Part shown: positions 1 to 7,461 of the stretch, piece after piece
Layout of the letters: each line of letters starts with the position of its first letter
Position numbering within the stretch: position 1 is the first letter of the stretch
Assembly (NCBI GenBank): GCA_048939465.1
Contig: JBHLPL010000090.1
Span: 1-7,878 of the forward strand
Direction of reading: 5' to 3'
DNA length: 7,878 nucleotides
Source of the DNA: Promethearchaeota archaeon
GTDB taxonomy: Archaea > Asgardarchaeota > Odinarchaeia > Odinarchaeales > JBHLKK01
Notes under the pieces: model-generated
The model's input: the letters and a program-made list of their open reading frames with translations, nothing else
Told to the model about the DNA's origin: nothing
Database searches by the model: none
Translations under genes and position numbers: made by a program

Positions 1-1302
1 AGGGTTTCTTAAGAATAGGACACCAAAGAGCAGGGTCGGAGCCGAAAGGATCAGTACAAATGCAAATGGAAGGAAGGGAGATATACCATATAAGAATCCT
101 CCAATCAATGGACCAAATATAAAGGAAATATCGAATATCGCGTATTGAAGCGCAAAACCCGTACTTCTTTTATCTCTGGGAGAGAATGCAGCTATCATAG
201 CAAACTCGGTATTGAACCTCAAGGCATTTCCTACGGAGAAAGGAATTTGAGATAAAAGGACATCAACGAGGTCCGATGCTCGTATGAATAATATAATGCC
301 TAGAAGATAGAAAGGCACCGCGAGTAACAAAAGATTTCTCTTGCTGTACTTGTCCACAATCCTCCCTGTCGGGATCTGAGCTATTGTATTGACTCCTATG
401 GAGAATGATATCCAGATTCCTAGCTCTACAACTGTAAAACCAAGTTCCTCATCAAGATAGATGGCCATAAATGCATTTATGGAAGCAAGGATAAGCGATG
501 CCAATATGATGAACCCATAGAGACCTAGAATAGACTTGCTTCGAAAACCAAGAGCTTGCTCGGGTTGATAGCTATCGTCTAGATTGCCACGAGCTTTGGG
601 ATTTCCCGTTATTGATTCCTCTGGGGTGTTTGCTGACACGGAAACTGGCTCATAAGTTTCTCTTAGCATTAGCCAACGAATAGCCGTTACAGTCATCATG
701 ACTGCTCCTGATATCACAAATAAATAGGGCAACGATATTAGGTACCGAAGATGTTCCGGCACCGGGCCAGCAAAGTAGATTATGAGAAAGGCAGCCAGCA
801 ATGGTGCTAAGATATTGAAGCCCCCTCCTATTGTTTGAAATACACCATTTGCAGTGCCTCTCCTATCCGAAGGAACTGACTCGGCCATCATAACCTGCAT
901 TGGGTTAACGTAGGCAGCGTGCAAAAGCTGTTGAATGAACACAGGAATCATCAATAAAACCCATGAATTGAAGAGAATGAAGCTTGTGTAAGCAACACCA
1001 GTCAAAAAGGTTCCTACTATAACAAAAGGCTTTCTTCCCCTCCTGTCGCTTATTCTTGCAAAGAGGATGCATGACAGAGCATGGGCCGAAGTCGTGACTG
1101 CAAGAAATATGCCGATCTCAAAGGTGCTGGCTCCAAGATCACGAATATATAGATTAAGAAAATTGTTCCAGCCAAAGAAGAGGATCATCATTCCCATTGT
1201 TACACTAAGGACATATATGTTTCTCCAAAGACTCTTATTAACGCTGAAGGATGATTCTTCTGAAGCTTTTTCATTAACATCCTTTTCATTAGCTTTACTC
1301 AA
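1..1302 (-). CDS. Major facilitator superfamily (MFS) transporter, 3'-partial (runs off the left edge)
   Basis: Translated by hand on the minus strand; it is absent from the ORF track because no stop falls in the window. It starts at TTG 1302 and is open for 434 codons: MSKANEKDVNEKASEESSFSVNKSLWRNIYVLSVTMGMMILFFGWNNFLNLYIRDLGAS... It shows MFS motif A (ARISDRRGRKP), its second-half counterpart (GRIVDKYSKR), ESVPSDRRGTANG, FSPRDKRSTGFA and FGPLIGGFLY, with about 12 hydrophobic segments split by a hydrophilic central loop. Confidence 0.92.
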   Translation of the reverse strand, partial: MSKANEKDVNEKASEESSFSVNKSLWRNIYVLSVTMGMMILFFGWNNFLNLYIRDLGASTFEIGIFLAVTTSAHALSCILFARISDRRGRKPFVIVGTFLTGVAYTSFILFNSWVLLMIPVFIQQLLHAAYVNPMQVMMAESVPSDRRGTANGVFQTIGGGFNILAPLLAAFLIIYFAGPVPEHLRYLISLPYLFVISGAVMMTVTAIRWLMLRETYEPVSVSANTPEESITGNPKARGNLDDSYQPEQALGFRSKSILGLYGFIILASLILASINAFMAIYLDEELGFTVVELGIWISFSIGVNTIAQIPTGRIVDKYSKRNLLLLAVPFYLLGIILFIRASDLVDVLLSQIPFSVGNALRFNTEFAMIAAFSPRDKRSTGFALQYAIFDISFIFGPLIGGFLYGISPFLPFAFVLILSAPTLLFGVLFLRNP

Positions 1303-1852: not shown

Positions 1853-2476
1853 ATGAAGCCCTTGAAAATAATCAGGGATCCGGAATCCTGTCAGTTGGTC
1901 GGAGATGAGACCAGACGAAAAGTGATTTTCCTTCTCAGGGCAAAACCAATGAATGTAAGCCAGATTGCTGAAGCCTTGGAATTGTCTCCCCCGACAGTAT
2001 ATCACCACATTCAAAAACTAAAAAAGGCCGAGATGGTCGAGGTGGCTTATGAGAAGAGATGTGGGCACCTCATCGAAAGCTACTATCGAGCCACAGCAGA
2101 GGTTTTCTATTTCATACTCGGTGAATCTCCACACGCTGCAAAATCACACAAGGAAGCTGTAAAATCCATAGTAGAAGGTCTAAGAAGACTTGGCTTTAAT
2201 GTAAAATACGATGAGAAAATTGCTGGAGAAATCGCTGCCGTGGAAAAGAGGTTGGATAGCTTTAAAGATAATGAGGAATTCATTGAAAGCGTCTCCAAGT
2301 TCGACGACATTAATCCGATATATAGACAGAGTATCGTGTGGATCGCGAAACTCCTTTCTGCATCCGATAAAGAGTATGACGACAGACTTAACCTGCAAAA
2401 GAAGTACAGAGAGCTCTATAAGTCCTTGAAGGAGTCGAACCGAAGTCAATATGCTGCTCCTATTTCCATTTCCTAA
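1853..2476 (+). CDS. ArsR/SmtB-like winged helix-turn-helix transcriptional regulator with C-terminal helical extension
   Basis: The N-terminal wHTH pattern is DETRRKVIFLLRAKPMNVSQIAEALELSPPTVYHHIQKLKKAEMVEV, followed by wing residues (ESYYRA). A helical C-terminal domain of about 110 aa follows. Confidence 0.88.
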   Translation: MKPLKIIRDPESCQLVGDETRRKVIFLLRAKPMNVSQIAEALELSPPTVYHHIQKLKKAEMVEVAYEKRCGHLIESYYRATAEVFYFILGESPHAAKSHKEAVKSIVEGLRRLGFNVKYDEKIAGEIAAVEKRLDSFKDNEEFIESVSKFDDINPIYRQSIVWIAKLLSASDKEYDDRLNLQKKYRELYKSLKESNRSQYAAPISIS

Positions 2477-2690: not shown

Positions 2691-3203
2691 TTAAGTCAAT
2701 CGTGGAATCCACTTCGCTACCCTTTTTTTATACTCTAGATAGTCTTTACCAAAGGTCTTTTCAAGTACTGTCTCTTCATAATTCGCCAAATAGTCATAGA
2801 TAATGATAATGATAATCCATGGGATGAGAGATACTGGCGAGACAGTCAGAAGGATGAATGAAAGGTACATTAGAATCGTACCAAGGTACATCGGATGTCT
2901 AACGTAAGCGAAAACTCCATCAGTTACGAGAGCTAAGGGTTCATGTTTTTCACTAGATATGTGTTTTTGGCCAAACAAAGCTTGATGAGACTTTGCCATT
3001 AACACGAAAGCGAGTGCCAGTACGATGAGGAACAACGCAATGCGAATAACCAGCGGCATGAGACCTGCAAACCCTGTCGCAACCTTAAGGACAAAGAAGT
3101 CCAGAATCAGTACAGCAAAGAACATGAAGAATGAGGCAATCTGCAGGGGATGATTCTTTTTGTGTTCTAAACCCCTCATATGATTCTTTCTTTTGGAATT
3201 CAA
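2691..3203 (-). CDS. Isoprenylcysteine carboxylmethyltransferase (ICMT)/PEMT-family membrane methyltransferase
   Basis: It carries the family motifs LVTDGVFAYVRHPMYLG and EETVLEKTFGKDYLEYKKRVAKWIP, plus 4-5 hydrophobic segments. The TTG start is preceded by AAGGAGGT. Confidence 0.88.
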   Translation of the reverse strand: MNSKRKNHMRGLEHKKNHPLQIASFFMFFAVLILDFFVLKVATGFAGLMPLVIRIALFLIVLALAFVLMAKSHQALFGQKHISSEKHEPLALVTDGVFAYVRHPMYLGTILMYLSFILLTVSPVSLIPWIIIIIIYDYLANYEETVLEKTFGKDYLEYKKRVAKWIPRLT

Positions 3204-3209
3204 TACGCA

Positions 3210-3217
3210 ACCTCCTT
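3210..3217 (-). promoter_or_regulatory. Shine-Dalgarno AAGGAGGT for the methyltransferase
   Basis: The minus strand reads AAGGAGGT-TGCGTA-TTG, a 6-nt spacer. Confidence 0.7.
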
Positions 3218-3419
3218 AATATGAAGATTACCAATTGGGGGGGTCTATCGTCTTTCTACCTTTAAGAATGTTAGGCATGATGAGCTATATTTTAAGATCG
3301 TAGGTCTTTTCCATCCATCTTCTGATTCAATGACTGTCAAGAGCTAACAGAGATCAAGTATTCTACGCGTTATCAGAAAGTGTAGCACAAAGGGAATAAG
3401 TGAAAAACATGCTAACTAT

Positions 3420-4493
3420 ATGAACAAGAAACCTAAGGTGGCAGTTTCAATGACTTGTGAAGAGACTCTGGATCAGTATGGTTTAATCATTGAAGAGAAG
3501 ATTGGGGAGTGCTTCTCTGGGATCTTGGATGAAGCGCAATCCTATCATCCCTTTATAGCGGAGGTTTATGCTGCTTTGAAGGAGTATGTGCTTAGAAAAG
3601 GGAAAAGACTTGCCTCCTACAGTACGCTTCAAGCATATAATGGTTATTCGAATGGCGTCGATCATCGAATTCTGAAGGTCTGCGTGGGAATAGAACTCTA
3701 CCGTCACTGCATTCTAATTCATGATGATCTTATCGATAGGGATGATCTTAGGAGAGGAAAAAGAACTATCCACAAATCGTTTTCTGAGAGACGAGATGAA
3801 CGATTTGGTGAAGGAGTTGCTGTCTTTCTCGGTGACGTGCTTTATGCATTAGCTGCTGAGGTGCTAATGAATTCAGGCTTTGAGGATTATAAGCTTGCCA
3901 AGGTTCTTCAAACTCTGTCTGAGGGTTATCGTGAAGTAAACGAAAGCCAGATCTTGGACCTGCTTTTTGAAGGCAAGGAAGTAAGCGCAGATGAATGGTA
4001 CGTTATGGCATCCAAGAGGGCCGCGTCCCTATTTAAGGTAACAATGCTGGTAGGTGCGATTCTAGGTGGTGCCACTGAAAGAGACTTAAAGCTCTTGGAA
4101 GAAGCAGCCTTAAACATCGGATACTCTTTCGATATTCAAGATGATATAATCGATACTTATACGTCTGAGGATCAGTACGGTAGGCCACCATGCAGAGATT
4201 TCGCATTAAGCAAGAAGCCTTTACACATTGTATATGCTTTAGATTCCAAGAACCAGAAAGAATCTGAGACCTTAAGGATGCTACTATGCAAGAAGCCTGG
4301 TGCAGAAGAGATTGACCTGGCAAGATTAATAATCAAGAAAAGTGGAAGTCTGGATGCGTCCAAAGAAAGGTCAAAGCTACATGCTGAGAAAGCAAAGGCA
4401 CTTATCGAAAGCACGAGGATGAATGAAGAAACTAAAAGATCTCTCAGTTCCCTTATCGACTATGTAGAAGAAAGCCTGGACTGGTACAAATAG
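3420..4493 (+). CDS. Trans-isoprenyl diphosphate synthase (polyprenyl synthetase family), divergent; start may be ATG 3450
   Basis: It has FARM LIHDDLIDRDDLRRG, GDVL, ESQILDL, SARM IQDDIID and region I GKRL. AGGTG at 3436-3440 precedes ATG 3450, which favours the shorter start. Confidence 0.93.
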   Translation: MNKKPKVAVSMTCEETLDQYGLIIEEKIGECFSGILDEAQSYHPFIAEVYAALKEYVLRKGKRLASYSTLQAYNGYSNGVDHRILKVCVGIELYRHCILIHDDLIDRDDLRRGKRTIHKSFSERRDERFGEGVAVFLGDVLYALAAEVLMNSGFEDYKLAKVLQTLSEGYREVNESQILDLLFEGKEVSADEWYVMASKRAASLFKVTMLVGAILGGATERDLKLLEEAALNIGYSFDIQDDIIDTYTSEDQYGRPPCRDFALSKKPLHIVYALDSKNQKESETLRMLLCKKPGAEEIDLARLIIKKSGSLDASKERSKLHAEKAKALIESTRMNEETKRSLSSLIDYVEESLDWYK

Positions 4494-4644
4494 TAGGGGT
4501 CTCAGCCCATAGTCTCAAGCAAGAATGTTTTTCCTAGTACTGACATAACACAAAAAAGGTAGAAGCCCAAGAAGAATCAGAAAAAACAAAAGGGAGCATG
4601 GAGAGGAGGGAAAGAGAATTAACAAGAAGAGAGATAGGCCTTCT

Positions 4645-5685
4645 GTGTCGCCTAAATACACTTTGAACTCTTCTTTTAAACGGTTCAGTCAACGCAACAA
4701 TATATTTGGTCGCTTGAACTGGGACAAATCATTTGATGAGTACGATGTCAGTATGTATTCTCGAATTCCGTCGATTCTTTCTCAAAATGCTCCAGGATAT
4801 GACCGTATTGACTTCGCCATGGCTTTAAGCTCTTGGGCAGTATACAACTATTTCAACGGAGCTTTCTCCTGGAAGAAGCTTGGGGATACACAATCAGTTA
4901 TGGCAGAACCGACGTTGCCCAGGTACGAGATAAAAAAGGGAAACATTGGAAGTTTTACCACGAAGATGAAAGCTGCAGTCAAAGCGTCTGGAGCATCACT
5001 TGTGGGAATAGCACCATATGATGCTAGATGGACCTATACCCGCGATAGGCAGAACAATCCTATTGAACTCCCTAGCAAGATGACTTCTGTAATAGCCCTG
5101 GCCGTTGAAATGGATCCGCTGGGCCTGGGAACCTCTCCAACACTAATTTCCAATCACGCTACCGGCATAGGATATTCAAGGATGGCATTTTTAGTCTCAA
5201 TAGTAGCGGAGCTAATCCGAAATCTAGGTTATGGGGCCATACCGTGTGGAAATGACACCGCCCTGTCGATACCAATTGCTATCGATGCAGGATTAGGACA
5301 GCTGGGACGAAATGGTCTTTTGGTTACCAGGGAATTTGGCTCCAGAGTCCGCCTTTGCAAGGTTCTTACGGATATGCCGCTCGAGCATGACAAACCAATA
5401 GATTTTGGCGTCACTGATTATTGTCGTCGCTGCAAGGAATGTGCTGAAGCTTGTGAAGCTGAAGCGATCTCTTTTGACGATGAACCTTCCTTTCGTACTA
5501 CGTGCATCTCCAACAATCAAGGAATCTTGCGATGGGCCGTAGATGTAGAGAAATGTTATCGATTCTGGATTGAGAATGGTGGGGATTGCTCTACATGTAT
5601 AGTAGTCTGTCCGTTCAACTTGCAGACAGGGGGCAAAAGGGACGTTCGGCCGGAAGAGTTCTGGGAGCATGCCGAAAAGAAATGA
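4645..5685 (+). CDS. rdhA: Reductive dehalogenase catalytic subunit homologue (cobalamin + 2x[4Fe-4S]), PceA-like, no Tat signal
   Basis: Motifs: SQRNNIFGR, GASLVGIAPYD, GYSRM, GYGAIP, AGLGQLGRNG, FGSRVRLCKVLTDMPL and DKPIDFGVT. The Fe-S motifs are C260-x2-C263-x2-C266-x3-C270 and C304-x10-C315-x2-C318-x3-C322-P. The second is the RdhA/QueG-type CX10-12CX2CX3CP motif. GTG start. Confidence 0.88.
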   Translation: MSPKYTLNSSFKRFSQRNNIFGRLNWDKSFDEYDVSMYSRIPSILSQNAPGYDRIDFAMALSSWAVYNYFNGAFSWKKLGDTQSVMAEPTLPRYEIKKGNIGSFTTKMKAAVKASGASLVGIAPYDARWTYTRDRQNNPIELPSKMTSVIALAVEMDPLGLGTSPTLISNHATGIGYSRMAFLVSIVAELIRNLGYGAIPCGNDTALSIPIAIDAGLGQLGRNGLLVTREFGSRVRLCKVLTDMPLEHDKPIDFGVTDYCRRCKECAEACEAEAISFDDEPSFRTTCISNNQGILRWAVDVEKCYRFWIENGGDCSTCIVVCPFNLQTGGKRDVRPEEFWEHAEKK

Positions 5686-5851: not shown

Positions 5852-6406
5852 CTAGAAGGATTTGAATTTTTCTTTTTTGGCCTTGCAGATGGGGCAAATA
5901 TCCGGCGCGTCGCCTTCAACAGTGTATCCGCAGACTTGGCAGATTTGAACGGGCCCCAAATCCACATCTTCCCCTCGATCTACAGCTTGCTTAGCCTTCT
6001 GATAAAGGCTAGCGTGAATCTTCTCTGCCTCGAGGGCCCAGGCGAAGCTCGTCTCCGCTCCTTTTTCGCCTTGGAACTCAGCAACCGCTTTGTAAGCGGG
6101 ATACATCTCATTGATCTCGAACGTTTCTCCGTCAATGCCGGCCTGAAGATCTTCAGAAGTGCTTCTGGATCCAAAAACAGCCTCAGAAACAGTGACTGAT
6201 CCTCCTTTGCTCATAATGTTCCTGTAGTGGTTGGACGCGTGAATCCGTTCAGCAGAGGCCACGGCTGTGAACAGTCTGGCAACATTCGAGTATCCTTCTT
6301 CCGTTGCCCTTTTGGCGAAGATCGTGTATCTCATATTCGCTTGGCTCTCACCCGCGTAAGCGCTCTTGAGGTTGGCTTCAGTCATATGTCTAACCATTTT
6401 CCTCAT
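5852..6406 (-). CDS. rbr: Rubrerythrin (diiron domain + C-terminal rubredoxin-like domain); start may be ATG 6397
   Basis: The diiron ligand motifs are AGESQA, ERIH, GETFE..MYP and EKIH. The rubredoxin knuckles are CQVCGY and CPICKA. GAGG lies just upstream of ATG 6397. Confidence 0.95.
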   Translation of the reverse strand: MRKMVRHMTEANLKSAYAGESQANMRYTIFAKRATEEGYSNVARLFTAVASAERIHASNHYRNIMSKGGSVTVSEAVFGSRSTSEDLQAGIDGETFEINEMYPAYKAVAEFQGEKGAETSFAWALEAEKIHASLYQKAKQAVDRGEDVDLGPVQICQVCGYTVEGDAPDICPICKAKKEKFKSF

Positions 6407-6561: not shown

Positions 6562-7461
6562 GTGTTGAAAGGCGCACATTTTCTTCTGACTTATGCCTGT
6601 AATCTGGAATGTGACCATTGCTTTGTATACAGCGGCCCTAACGTTGAGGGAACCTTTACTCTGAAGCAAATCAGAAGTGTTCTTGATGAGCTGGCCAAGA
6701 TCGGGACAGTGAAGCATGTATATTTTGAGGGGGGCGAACCATTTCTTTTCTATCCTCTGATGCTCGAGGGAATTAGACTCGCTCAGGATCTTGGGTTTAA
6801 AACCGGAGTCGTAACTAACGCATACTGGGCGATTTCTGAAGAGGATGCTGAGCTTTGGCTAGCCCCACTCCACAAACTGAGAGTTGCAGATATCAGTATC
6901 AGCGATGATCTATTTCATTATGAAAATGAAAAGTCAAACCCTGCTAGACTTGCTTTGAAAGCTGGAAGGAAGTTAGGGATGCCCGCCAGCGTGATAACGA
7001 TTGAAAGACCCGTAGTGGAGAGCATAGACAAGGAACAGCCCAGAGGAAAACCAGTTGTTGGAGGAACCGTCATGTTCAGAGGAAGAGCGGTTGAGAAGCT
7101 GATCGAAGGCCTTCCTAAAAGACCGTGGGAGGAATTCACAGAATGCCCATACGAGGACTTAGAAAATCCCGAAAGGGTACATCTTGATCCATTTGGCGAA
7201 GTCCACATATGTCAGGGATTAAGCATGGGTAACATGTGGAAAACCCCTCTGTCAAAAATCATTGAAACTTATGATGCAAGTTCCCACCCCATTTGCGGAC
7301 CTCTGGTTAGGGGAGGACCTGCTCGTTTAGCCAAAGAATACGATCTTAAGCATGACGATGAATATGTCGATGCTTGTCACTTCTGCTATCTTATTCGGAA
7401 GGAACTATTGACTTCTTTTCCGAGGTACCTTGCACCGCGGCAGGTTTATGGACTTGATTAG
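6562..7461 (+). CDS. Radical SAM protein with C-terminal twitch/SPASM-like auxiliary-cluster cysteines
   Basis: It has C13-x3-C17-x2-C20 (CNLECDHC), GGEPFL, VTNAYWA, ISDDLFH and FRGRA. The C-terminal Cys are C195, C217, C245, C272 and C275. The GTG (or TTG 6565) start follows GAAGGGGGAG. Confidence 0.93.
   Translation: MLKGAHFLLTYACNLECDHCFVYSGPNVEGTFTLKQIRSVLDELAKIGTVKHVYFEGGEPFLFYPLMLEGIRLAQDLGFKTGVVTNAYWAISEEDAELWLAPLHKLRVADISISDDLFHYENEKSNPARLALKAGRKLGMPASVITIERPVVESIDKEQPRGKPVVGGTVMFRGRAVEKLIEGLPKRPWEEFTECPYEDLENPERVHLDPFGEVHICQGLSMGNMWKTPLSKIIETYDASSHPICGPLVRGGPARLAKEYDLKHDDEYVDACHFCYLIRKELLTSFPRYLAPRQVYGLD

What the first reader, a model, noticed from the sequence alone, without database searches (positions are those of the whole stretch)
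4645..5685. Compact archaeal PceA-like reductive dehalogenase with no Tat peptide and no RdhB anchor
Seen in sequence: the 346-aa protein has both Fe-S motifs, the cobalamin-domain GLG..GR.G segment, Y177 in GYSRM and R236/K239 in RVRLCK. It starts directly with SPKYTLN, with no RRxFLK and no h-region. Neither flanking intergenic region holds a small hydrophobic ORF. Established knowledge, recalled rather than aligned: respiratory RdhAs such as Sulfurospirillum PceA have a Tat signal, an rdhB partner and a catalytic Tyr/Arg pair, and the VRL.KV.T.MPL..DKPIDFGVT..C stretch closely resembles PceA. RdhA homologues are known from Ferroglobus and Asgard genomes but are largely uncharacterised. Archaea use archaeosine rather than queuosine, so a QueG role is unlikely. 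Inference: this is a soluble, non-respiratory B12 reductase acting on an organohalide or some unknown substrate. The first cluster motif ends in C-E rather than C-P.
Basis: partly seen in the sequence, partly recalled or inferred. Interest (0 to 1): 0.72.

Follow-up and report, generated by a model that had tools for sequence, protein, structure and literature searches.

The report
Leaderless compact Asgard reductive dehalogenase homologue
This gene encodes a small vitamin-B12 and iron-sulfur enzyme of the reductive dehalogenase family that stays inside the cell of an Asgard archaeon; it is a genuine, well-conserved member of a group already described in Asgard genomes, and nobody has yet found its substrate by experiment.

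Summary
ORF 4645-5685(+) encodes a 346-aa RdhA-family protein: TIGR02486 scores 179 bits against a cut-off of 160, while QueG scores 56 against 200. All eight Fe-S cysteines are present. Y177, N203 and R236 align without gaps to PceA Tyr246, Asn272 and Arg305. The predicted fold matches PceA at Z 39, NpRdhA at Z 30 and QueG at Z 16.

No Tat or Sec leader is possible. The 32 in-frame codons back to the upstream stop are all charged, and this DNA is identical in five assemblies. No TatC was found in this genome or in five relatives, and no RdhB-like gene lies on the contig.

The protein is not unusual. It belongs to a large clade of 320-385-aa leaderless archaeal proteins. RDH-family matches occur in 205 of 301 Asgard genomes searched. 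Manoharan et al. 2019 already reported the absence of TAT and RdhB and the conserved Tyr/Asn/Arg in Asgard RDases. This scan has also noted such proteins in other genomes.

Points added here:
- C-E instead of C-P after the first cluster motif is a clade signature.
- dN/dS is 0.07.
- A PceA-like homodimer is predicted.
- The start codon is ambiguous.
- Sister genomes do not support linkage to the neighbouring prenyl synthase.

Verdict: a new member of a known kind, of modest interest, with no experimental evidence on its substrate.

The parts
4645..5685 (+). rdhA-like CDS, 346 aa from the GTG start. It encodes a leaderless, compact, PceA-like cobamide and 2x[4Fe-4S] reductase.
   Evidence: The ORF is listed. 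TIGR02486 scores 179.4 bits, above the 160.35 cut-off. PceA is the top hit in the PDB at 1e-58. The AF2 model has pLDDT 93.3. Structural match to PceA is Z 39.4. dN/dS against the sister genes is 0.07.
4546..4548 (+). In-frame TAA stop that limits any N-terminal extension to 32 charged codons with no hydrophobic region.
   Evidence: Read from the sequence and translated. The region is identical in five independent assemblies.
4605..4620 (+). GGAGG(G) followed by 8 nt and an in-frame ATT (4618-4620). This is a possible Shine-Dalgarno element with a non-canonical start, which would give a 355-aa protein with a Lys/Arg-rich leader.
   Evidence: The block is conserved in both sister loci, while the surrounding leader DNA diverges. 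In the sisters the Val codon is GTA, so it cannot serve as a start there. That ATT is used as a start is an inference.
5161..5175 (+). T173 to Y177. Y177 is the equivalent of the catalytic proton donor Tyr246 of PceA.
   Evidence: Ungapped alignment to 4uqu. Y177 is invariant in 82 family members and in all 141 representatives compared.
5251..5253 (+). N203, the equivalent of PceA Asn272.
5290..5316 (+). GLGQLGRNG segment of the cobamide-binding core.
   Evidence: Coordinates checked. G218, G221 and G224 are invariant, and G216, L217 and R222 are at least 90% conserved, across 82 family members.
5350..5361 (+). R236, the equivalent of PceA Arg305, and K239.
5422..5457 (+). First [4Fe-4S] motif, C260xxC263xxC266xxxC270, followed by E271 instead of Pro.
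   Evidence: The Glu is clade-specific: 19 of 23 clade members, against Pro in 48 of 48 Tat-type representatives.
5554..5613 (+). Second cluster ligands C304, C315, C318 and C322-P323. The segment also holds W308 (PceA Trp376) and D314 (at the position of PceA Tyr382).
1853..2476 (+). ArsR-family winged-helix regulator. It is the only neighbour kept upstream of rdhA in all three genomes of this lineage and is a candidate regulator.
   Evidence: Pfam HTH_5. Synteny in L005 and L006. A regulatory role is an inference.

Best explanation
The gene encodes a cytoplasmic, probably homodimeric RdhA-family reductase. It is one member of the compact, leaderless archaeal clade of reductive dehalogenase homologues.

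Proposed mechanism, by analogy with PceA:
- A low-potential cytoplasmic donor, most likely a ferredoxin, reduces the two [4Fe-4S] clusters.
- The clusters reduce a deeply bound, base-off cobamide to Co(I).
- Co(I) attacks a carbon-halogen bond of an organohalide that has entered the cell.
- Halide leaves, and Tyr177 protonates the product. Arg236 and Asn203 tune the tyrosine.

The enzyme has no Tat leader and no RdhB, and the lineage appears to lack Tat. It therefore cannot be the outward-facing, quinol-linked terminal reductase of classical organohalide respiration. More likely it detoxifies natural organohalides, unlocks them as carbon sources, or uses them as an electron sink.

Shown here: family membership, fold, catalytic residues, absence of a leader, purifying selection.
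Inferred: the cobamide cofactor, the electron donor, the organohalide substrate and the physiological role.
For: - Family: TIGR02486 RDH scores 179.4 bits, above the 160.35 cut-off, while QueG scores 56.2 against a cut-off of 200.
- PDB sequence search: Desulfitobacterium PceA 1e-58, S. multivorans PceA 6e-46, NpRdhA 4e-24, QueG 7.5e-12.
- Fold: the model has pLDDT 93.3. VIA-align gives Z 39.4 to PceA (333 residues aligned, rmsd 2.5), Z 29.9 to NpRdhA and Z 16.2 to QueG. Foldseek TM-scores normalised to the query are 0.85, 0.67-0.70 and 0.45.
- Active site: Y177, N203, R236 and W308 correspond to PceA Tyr246, Asn272, Arg305 and Trp376. They are invariant or nearly so in the family. All eight Fe-S cysteines are invariant.
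- Cytoplasmic location: there is no hydrophobic segment and no RR motif, and the 32 in-frame upstream codons are all charged. That DNA is identical in five assemblies. TatC was not found in the genome, which is 91% complete, nor in five relatives.
- Phylogeny: the protein lies in a 10-row Asgard clade (SH-aLRT 99) inside a 23-row all-leaderless clade. The Tat-bearing representatives lie elsewhere.
- Selection: dN/dS is 0.07 against the sister genes.
- Homodimer: ipSAE 0.93 against a best control of 0.00. The runs agree in at least 97% of contacts and the partner's pLDDT is at least 92. The mark was reached by 20 of 30 proteins solved as pairs and 1 of 23 solved as single chains. PceA dimers are solved, so this pass may only reflect that likeness. 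Tandem-fused double-RdhA relatives exist in Peptococcaceae.
- Cobamide use in the cell: four other proteins with a B12-binding domain score above the cut-off in this genome.
- Literature: the same reading was reached for Loki- and Thorarchaeota RDases (PMC6737245).
Against: - No member of this archaeal clade has been assayed, so dehalogenase activity rests on homology alone (PMC12219181, also asks for validation).
- Pfam PF13486 'Dehalogenase' is not detected in this protein at E <= 0.01, although many clade members hit it.
- No cobamide salvage or transport genes were found in the 91%-complete genome: CobS, CbiB, a PduO-type adenosyltransferase and BtuC/FecCD. The cofactor supply is therefore unexplained.
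- No ferredoxin or other donor gene lies next to the gene.
- The wide spread in Asgard genomes (205 of 301), mostly as one or two matches per genome, looks more like a conserved core function than a xenobiotic trait.
- The start codon is uncertain.
Confidence: 0.6

Rival explanations
1. The enzyme is a cytoplasmic B12/Fe-S reductase of this clade, but its natural substrate is not an organohalide. It would perform some other reductive elimination on an endogenous or common metabolite, much as QueG reduces an epoxide. On this reading the label 'dehalogenase' is a misnomer for the archaeal clade.
For: - The family is found in about two thirds of the Asgard genomes searched, and in 64 of 90 high-quality ones, mostly as one or two matches per genome.
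- The Asgard sequences form one well-supported clade, which is consistent with long vertical inheritance.
- Purifying selection is strong.
- The clade has a signature Glu after the first cluster motif, and Asp or Glu at position 314 in all 23 members (aligned to PceA Tyr382); unlike the Glu, Asp/Glu there is also common in the other groups.
- No substrate has been shown for any member.
Against: - The PceA catalytic set (Tyr, Asn, Arg, Trp) is conserved exactly as in the Tat-bearing representatives compared here, which are presumed to be respiratory enzymes.
- The fold is much closer to PceA than to QueG.
- The family is missing from several whole Asgard families, including four nearly complete genomes of this genome's own order. 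That argues against an essential housekeeping role.
Confidence: 0.25
2. The enzyme is part of an energy-conserving chain after all. It would dock on the cytoplasmic face of a membrane complex, for example a Nuo- or Mbh-like complex, instead of using Tat and RdhB.
For: In four Heimdall-type relatives (58-63% identity) the gene lies head-to-head with an 11-subunit Nuo-like operon containing NuoA, B, C, D, H, I and J-type genes.
Against: - In this genome the Nuo-like genes lie on other contigs, C71 and C109.
- This contig and its two sister loci show no such neighbour.
- Published work found the synteny of Asgard RDase genes to be lineage-specific.
- The protein has no membrane segment.
Confidence: 0.08
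3. The gene is decaying. Its ancestral ATG start has been lost, so it may not be translated properly.
For: - Sister locus L005 keeps an in-frame ATG 22 codons upstream of the conserved Val.
- In the window the nearby ATG at 4598 is out of frame.
- L006 has no canonical in-frame start upstream of the conserved core.
Against: - The window has a GTG exactly at the start of the conserved core.
- dN/dS is 0.07.
- All catalytic and cluster residues are intact.
- The reading frame carries no stop and no insertion relative to its homologues.
- A conserved GGAGG plus ATT offers another possible start.
Confidence: 0.03
4. The protein is an archaeal epoxyqueuosine reductase (QueG).
For: It belongs to the same superfamily. 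QueG structures match the model at Z 16, and some databases label clade members as QueG.
Against: - TIGR00276 scores 56 bits against a cut-off of 200.
- Only residues 100-342 align to QueG, and in the tree E. coli QueG groups with the genome's own paralogue, outside the RdhA sequences.
- The genome carries a separate, more QueG-like paralogue, which itself scores below the cut-off.
- From established knowledge, archaeal tRNAs carry archaeosine rather than queuosine.
Confidence: 0.02

Closest known systems
Putative reductive dehalogenases of Loki- and Thorarchaeota (Manoharan et al. 2019, mBio, PMC6737245)
   Same: - No TAT signal and no RdhB gene.
- PceA Tyr246, Arg305 and Asn272 are conserved.
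- PceA is the closest characterised enzyme, at about 30-33% identity there and 31-34% identity in the structural alignment here.
- Gene neighbourhoods are lineage-specific.
- Cobamide synthesis is incomplete in the genomes.
- The window's protein falls in the same Asgard clade.
   Different: - It comes from a different Asgard lineage. NCBI labels its nearest relatives Hodarchaeota, at 80% identity.
- It lacks the extra N-terminal ferredoxin domain of the Thorarchaeota form.
- Its start codon is ambiguous, and it may lack the Lys-rich leader that most relatives carry.
PceA, the respiratory tetrachloroethene reductive dehalogenase (S. multivorans 4UQU; Desulfitobacterium PceA2B2 complex 8Q4H)
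   Same: - The fold matches over almost the whole protein (Z 39, 329-333 of 346 residues aligned).
- It has the same catalytic Tyr, Asn and Arg, the same Trp376 equivalent, and the same eight cluster cysteines.
- A dimer is predicted.
   Different: - It has no Tat leader and no RdhB.
- It is about 115 residues shorter than mature PceA. The loops or inserts and the C-terminal extension are missing.
- Glu replaces Pro after the first cluster motif, and Asp replaces Tyr382.
- It is cytoplasmic.
Catabolic cytoplasmic reductive dehalogenases (NpRdhA 4RAS/6ZY1, BhbA, self-sufficient RdhAs)
   Same: Both are leaderless, cytoplasmic and non-respiratory, with the same B12 and 2x[4Fe-4S] core (Z about 30).
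   Different: - It has no vestigial second cobalamin-type domain and no C-terminal reductase module. It is 346 aa against about 700-1070 aa.
- It is closer to PceA in both sequence and structure.
- It comes from a strict-anaerobe lineage, so oxygen tolerance and NADPH dependence are not expected. This last point is an inference.
Epoxyqueuosine reductase QueG (5D08, 5D6S; TIGR00276)
   Same: Both share the superfamily core and are leaderless, cytoplasmic B12/Fe-S reductases.
   Different: The protein scores far below the family cut-off. Only the core aligns. The catalytic residues are of the dehalogenase type.

Membership tests
RdhA (reductive dehalogenase catalytic subunit, TIGR02486 / PF13486) | Score above the curated cut-off of the family HMM | tested here: met
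   TIGR02486 scores 179.4 bits against a cut-off of 160.35. The whole-genome search gives 173.6 bits, also over the cut-off.
RdhA (reductive dehalogenase catalytic subunit, TIGR02486 / PF13486) | Match to Pfam PF13486, the Dehalogenase domain | tested here: inconclusive
   There is no hit at E <= 0.01 for this protein. Many clade members at 50-60% identity do carry the hit, and the fold covers the region.
RdhA (reductive dehalogenase catalytic subunit, TIGR02486 / PF13486) | Two C-terminal [4Fe-4S] binding motifs (eight Cys) | tested here: met
   C260, C263, C266, C270, C304, C315, C318 and C322 are invariant in 82 sequences.
RdhA (reductive dehalogenase catalytic subunit, TIGR02486 / PF13486) | Catalytic Tyr with its Arg (or Lys) and Asn partners at the PceA positions | tested here: met
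   Y177, R236 and N203 correspond to Tyr246, Arg305 and Asn272 in an ungapped alignment. They are conserved in the clade and in the Tat-type representatives.
RdhA (reductive dehalogenase catalytic subunit, TIGR02486 / PF13486) | PceA/NpRdhA-type cobamide-binding fold | tested here: met
   The predicted model (pLDDT 93.3) matches PceA at Z 39.4 and NpRdhA at Z 29.9. This is a prediction, not a solved structure.
RdhA (reductive dehalogenase catalytic subunit, TIGR02486 / PF13486) | Bound corrinoid and reductive dehalogenation activity | not testable with these tools
   This needs anaerobic expression, cofactor analysis and an activity assay.
Prototypical respiratory RdhA (PceA type) | N-terminal Tat signal (RRxFLK followed by a hydrophobic region) | tested here: not met
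   There is no motif and no hydrophobic segment in the ORF or in the 32 in-frame upstream codons. The DNA is identical in five assemblies.
Prototypical respiratory RdhA (PceA type) | Adjacent rdhB membrane-anchor gene | tested here: not met
   - The only membrane proteins on the contig are an MFS transporter and an ICMT/PEMT-like methyltransferase.
- The 48-aa antisense frame has one hydrophobic segment and no family hit.
- No RdhB profile was available, so the rest of the genome was not searched for rdhB.
Prototypical respiratory RdhA (PceA type) | Tat translocase present in the genome | tested here: not met
   TatC (PF00902) was not found in the 91%-complete genome, nor in five relatives, two of which are 97-98% complete. 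The control genomes gave matches.
Catabolic NpRdhA/BhbA-type RdhA | Extra N-terminal vestigial cobalamin-type domain and/or a C-terminal reductase module, and closest similarity to NpRdhA | tested here: not met
   The protein is 346 aa and consists of the core only. NpRdhA ranks below PceA in both sequence and structure. The self-sufficient forms are distant.
QueG (TIGR00276) | Score above the equivalog cut-off, and a full-length fold match | tested here: not met
   The score is 56.2 bits against a cut-off of 200. The structural match is Z 16 over residues 100-342 only.
Leaderless compact archaeal RdhA clade (Asgard RDases of PMC6737245) | Groups with the Asgard sequences, is 320-385 aa long, has no leader, and carries the C-E signature after the first cluster motif | tested here: met
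   The nearest hits are from Hod-, Heimdall- and Thorarchaeota at 55-80% identity. The protein lies in a 10-row clade with support 99 inside a 23-row all-leaderless clade. E271 is shared by 19 of 23 clade members.

The most novel reading that the evidence does not exclude
The compact leaderless archaeal clade may be an ancient, mostly vertically inherited cytoplasmic B12 reductase. It is marked by CxxCxxCxxxC-E and is present in about two thirds of the Asgard genomes searched. Its real job may not be removal of pollutant halogens. It could instead reduce a common natural or endogenous compound, or re-oxidise ferredoxin as an electron sink. In Heimdall-type relatives it may be functionally tied to the Nuo-like complex that it sits beside.
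Probability: 0.2. Interest if true: 0.6.

Novelty: new member of a known kind. Interest (0 to 1): 0.3.

Why it matters
RdhA homologues without Tat and RdhB are among the most widespread unexplained redox enzymes of anaerobic sediment archaea, including the Asgard relatives of eukaryotes. If they really dehalogenate, these archaea take part in the marine halogen cycle and could use organohalides as an electron sink. If they do not, a large 'dehalogenase' annotation class is mislabelled.

This particular gene adds a clean, compact example of 346 aa with a confident model and a predicted dimer, which would suit heterologous expression. It does not change what is already known about the class.

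Tried and rejected
- **N-terminal extension or hidden exon.** Earlier notes on this genome report tRNA-type micro-introns in protein genes, so I looked for an interrupted N-terminus. The ORF shows no insertion relative to 18 homologues. The leader is purine-rich and identical in five assemblies. The upstream ATG at 4598 opens only a 22-codon out-of-frame ORF. Rejected.
- **RdhB candidates.**
  - The ICMT/PEMT-like membrane protein matches isoprenylcysteine methyltransferases, not PceB.
  - The 91-aa ORF downstream of rdhA in the sister loci is hydrophilic.
  - A 77-aa two-helix ORF upstream of rdhA in sister L006 has no PDB hit (including 8Q4H chain B) at E <= 10. It has no Pfam hit above noise, no counterpart in this genome, and none in the other loci.
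- **Isoprenoid module idea** (methyltransferase, prenyl synthase and reductase acting together). The stretch between the ArsR gene and rdhA differs in all three sister genomes. The prenyl synthase is absent from both sisters. Not supported.
- **Conserved partner.** Eight related loci share no common neighbour. Four Heimdall-type loci share a divergent Nuo-like operon, but this genome does not.
- **Expression.** No RNA holder is listed among the public runs.
- **Rfam.** No RNA family match in the window.
- **Named references for the tree.** Named PceA and NpRdhA sequences could not be fetched for the tree. Unnamed 50%-identity representatives were labelled by a crude Tat, TM or leaderless rule, and E. 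coli QueG and the genome's own paralogue served as outgroups. A few Tat-bearing rows are probably mislabelled as leaderless.
- **Literature.** Searches for an assayed archaeal RdhA found none.
Full report
**What is there.** The window is a complete 7,878-bp contig (C18) of a 1.96-Mb, 91%-complete Asgard archaeal genome bin. ORF 4645-5685(+) encodes 346 aa from a GTG start. Its neighbours are:
- an MFS transporter (1-1302, minus strand);
- an ArsR-family regulator (1853-2476, plus);
- an ICMT/PEMT-like membrane methyltransferase (2691-3203, minus);
- a polyprenyl synthase (3420-4493, plus);
- a rubrerythrin (5852-6406, minus);
- a radical SAM protein (6562-7461, plus).

**Checking the observation.** These are GYSRM with Y177, RVRLCK with R236 and K239, GLGQLGRNG, CRRCKECAEAC followed by E271, and the second cluster ligands C304, C315, C318 and C322-P. 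The phmmer alignment to S. multivorans PceA (4uqu) has no gap between query residues 139 and 276. Y177, N203 and R236 therefore fall exactly on Tyr246, Asn272 and Arg305, and W308 falls on Trp376.

**Family.**
- NCBIfam TIGR02486 (reductive dehalogenase) scores 179.4 bits against a cut-off of 160.35. QueG (TIGR00276) scores 56.2 against 200.
- Against PDB sequences the order is Desulfitobacterium PceA (1e-58), Sulfurospirillum PceA (6e-46), NpRdhA (4e-24), QueG (7.5e-12).
- An AlphaFold2 model built on 82 homologues has mean pLDDT 93.3.
- Foldseek and VIA-align give the same order: PceA Z 39.4 (333 of 346 residues aligned, rmsd 2.5), NpRdhA Z 29.9, QueG Z 16.2 over residues 100-342 only.
- 'Compact' therefore means PceA without its long inserts, its first roughly 20 mature residues and its C-terminal extension. 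The fold is not a different one.
- Pfam's PF13486 model does not reach E 0.01 on this protein, although many clade members hit it.

**No leader, no anchor.**
- The protein has no hydrophobic segment and no twin-arginine motif.
- The frame is closed by TAA at 4546-4548. The 32 codons between that stop and the GTG are all Lys, Arg, Glu or Gly-rich.
- This DNA is identical in contigs assembled from at least four other sequencing runs, so it is not an assembly error.
- TatC was not found in this genome. It was also not found in two congeners, two 97-98%-complete genomes of the same order, or another Asgard genome that carries the enzyme.
- No RdhB-like gene is on the contig. The only membrane proteins are the MFS transporter and the methyltransferase, which matches isoprenylcysteine methyltransferases.
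It has one hydrophobic segment and no family hit, and I regard it as a by-product of base composition.

**Where it belongs.**
- The word-indexed search returned more than 4,000 relatives. The best 120 are nearly all 320-385 aa (one is 310 aa).
- The named ones come from Hod-, Heimdall- and Thorarchaeota, 'Asgard group', Bathyarchaeia, Theionarchaea, Methanofastidiosia and Thermoplasmatota, and are mostly annotated 'reductive dehalogenase'.
- The exhaustive search of 50%-identity representatives found 4,331 proteins at E <= 0.001 and 346 at E <= 1e-30.
- I built a maximum-likelihood tree of 149 rows (quick search, LG+G4). It was rooted on E. coli QueG and the genome's own QueG-like paralogue.
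- In that tree the protein sits with its 80%-identical sister in a 10-row Asgard clade (SH-aLRT 99). That clade lies inside a 23-row clade (SH-aLRT 81) in which no member has a Tat signal. The Tat-bearing representatives lie elsewhere.
- My Tat labelling was a simple rule and a few rows are mislabelled. The all-leaderless state of the 23-row clade was also visible directly in the N-termini.
- Across 301 Asgard genomes the RDH family model matches in 205. Of these, 176 score above the cut-off, and 64 of 90 high-quality genomes have a match. Most genomes have one or two matches.
- Some families are fully positive. Others are fully negative, including four nearly complete genomes of this genome's own order.

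**Is it functional?**
- Compared with the two sister genes (about 80% protein identity), dN/dS is 0.07.
- All catalytic and cluster residues are intact.
- There is no insertion or stop relative to homologues.
- Homodimer prediction: score 0.93 against a best control of 0.00. The runs agree in at least 97% of contacts and the partner's pLDDT is at least 92. This mark was reached by 20 of 30 proteins solved as pairs and 1 of 23 solved as single chains.
- The predicted interface includes the long helix 167-193 that follows Tyr177. PceA dimers are solved, so the pass may only reflect that likeness.
- Relatives in Peptococcaceae and Desulfitobacterium are tandem fusions of two such modules, each with all eight cysteines. 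This fits a paired working unit.

**New details.**
1. The Glu after the fourth Cys of the first cluster motif is a clade signature. It is found in 19 of 23 clade members. All 48 Tat-type representatives and 63 of 70 other leaderless ones have Pro.
2. Position 314 is Asp or Glu in all 23 clade members. It aligns with PceA Tyr382, which I recall as a residue lining the pocket. That role is from memory, not tested.
3. The start codon is uncertain.
   - The family's conserved core begins at 'SVSPxYTLN'. In most relatives it is preceded by a 14-45-aa Lys-rich leader that is not hydrophobic.
   - In the window the Val codon is GTG and can start translation.
   - In both sister genomes it is GTA. One sister has an in-frame ATG 22 codons upstream. 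The other has no canonical in-frame start upstream of the core at all.
   - All three share GGAGG(G), 8-9 nt, then an in-frame ATT (window 4605-4620) in otherwise diverged DNA.
   - An AUU start is possible but unproven. Either way no signal peptide can be made.

**Context.**
- The idea that the methyltransferase, the prenyl synthase and the reductase form one module is not supported.
- Between the ArsR gene and rdhA, one sister has nothing, the other has the methyltransferase plus a unique 77-aa two-helix ORF, and the window has the methyltransferase plus the prenyl synthase.
- The 77-aa ORF has no similarity to PceB or to any Pfam family, and no counterpart in this genome.
- Only the ArsR-type regulator is kept upstream in all three. 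One Heimdall-type relative has an HxlR-type regulator in that position.
- In four Heimdall-type relatives the gene is divergent from a Nuo-like operon. In this genome those genes lie on other contigs.

**Cofactor supply.** CobS, CbiB, a PduO-type adenosyltransferase and BtuC-type permeases were not found in the 91%-complete genome. Four other proteins with B12-binding domains score above the cut-off. The cell evidently uses cobamides but must obtain them by an unrecognised route. The same was reported for Loki- and Thorarchaeota.

**Comparison with the literature.**
- Manoharan et al. 2019 (PMC6737245) described putative RDases in nearly all Loki- and Thorarchaeota genomes. They reported no TAT signals, no B proteins, conserved Tyr246/Arg305/Asn272, PceA as the closest characterised enzyme, lineage-specific synteny and incomplete corrinoid synthesis.
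- A 2025 survey of cold-seep metagenomes again lists Asgard RdhA-like genes and states that archaeal activity still needs validation (PMC12219181).
- I found no paper reporting an assay of an archaeal member.
- Earlier notes of this scan describe the same kind of protein in other Asgard genomes.

**Verdict.** The gene is one more member of an already described and very common archaeal clade. The open question is what these enzymes reduce, and it applies to the whole clade. It can only be settled at the bench.

Noticed in passing
window 4546-4665; L005:1119-1190; L006:5578-5680: The start codon of rdhA differs among three sister genomes. The window has GTG at the first conserved residue and an out-of-frame ATG at 4598. 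L005 has an in-frame ATG 22 codons upstream that its annotators did not use. L006 has no canonical in-frame start upstream of the conserved core. All three share GGAGG(G), 8-9 nt, then an in-frame ATT, which may be a non-canonical AUU start.
   Followed up: partly
L007:1-7158, L018:1-6122, L019:1-6083, L020:1-6086: In four Heimdall-type relatives (58-63% identity) the compact rdhA lies head-to-head, about 220-240 bp apart in three of the four loci, with a Nuo-like operon of NuoA, B, C, D, H, I and J-type genes. A glycosyltransferase and an aminotransferase are conserved downstream in three of the four (L007 ends just past rdhA). This genome does not share the arrangement.
   Followed up: partly
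P0125, P0126, P0129 (Peptococcaceae / Desulfitobacterium sp. PCE1): Leaderless proteins of 685-709 aa that are tandem fusions of two compact RdhA modules, each with all eight Fe-S cysteines. In P0129 the second module has His and Gln in place of the catalytic Tyr and Arg.
   Followed up: partly
L002:1186-2121 (own genome, contig C130): A second member of the QueG/RdhA superfamily in this genome, 311 aa. It scores 75 bits on QueG (cut-off 200) and 40 bits on RDH, so it fits neither family. Its function is unknown.
   Followed up: no
own genome G000, whole: No CobS, CbiB, PduO-type adenosyltransferase, BtuC/FecCD or TatC was found in the 91%-complete genome. Four proteins with B12-binding domains score above the cut-off (contigs C84, C107, C138 and C98), so the route of cobamide supply is unexplained.
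   Followed up: partly
window 3190-4602 compared with L006:5045-5613 and L005:648-1047: The stretch between the ArsR gene and rdhA is a variable spot. The window carries the polyprenyl synthase here. Sister L006 carries a unique 77-aa two-helix ORF (L006:5221-5454). Sister L005 carries only about 400 bp and also lacks the methyltransferase.
   Followed up: yes
window 4515-4661 (-): A 48-aa hydrophobic frame lies antisense to the purine-rich rdhA leader. It has no family hit and is probably an artefact of base composition.
   Followed up: partly
window 5455-5457 (E271) and 5584-5586 (D314): Glu instead of Pro after the first cluster motif is specific to the compact archaeal clade (19 of 23, against 0 of 48 Tat-type representatives). 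Position 314, which aligns with PceA Tyr382, is Asp or Glu throughout the clade.
   Followed up: yes
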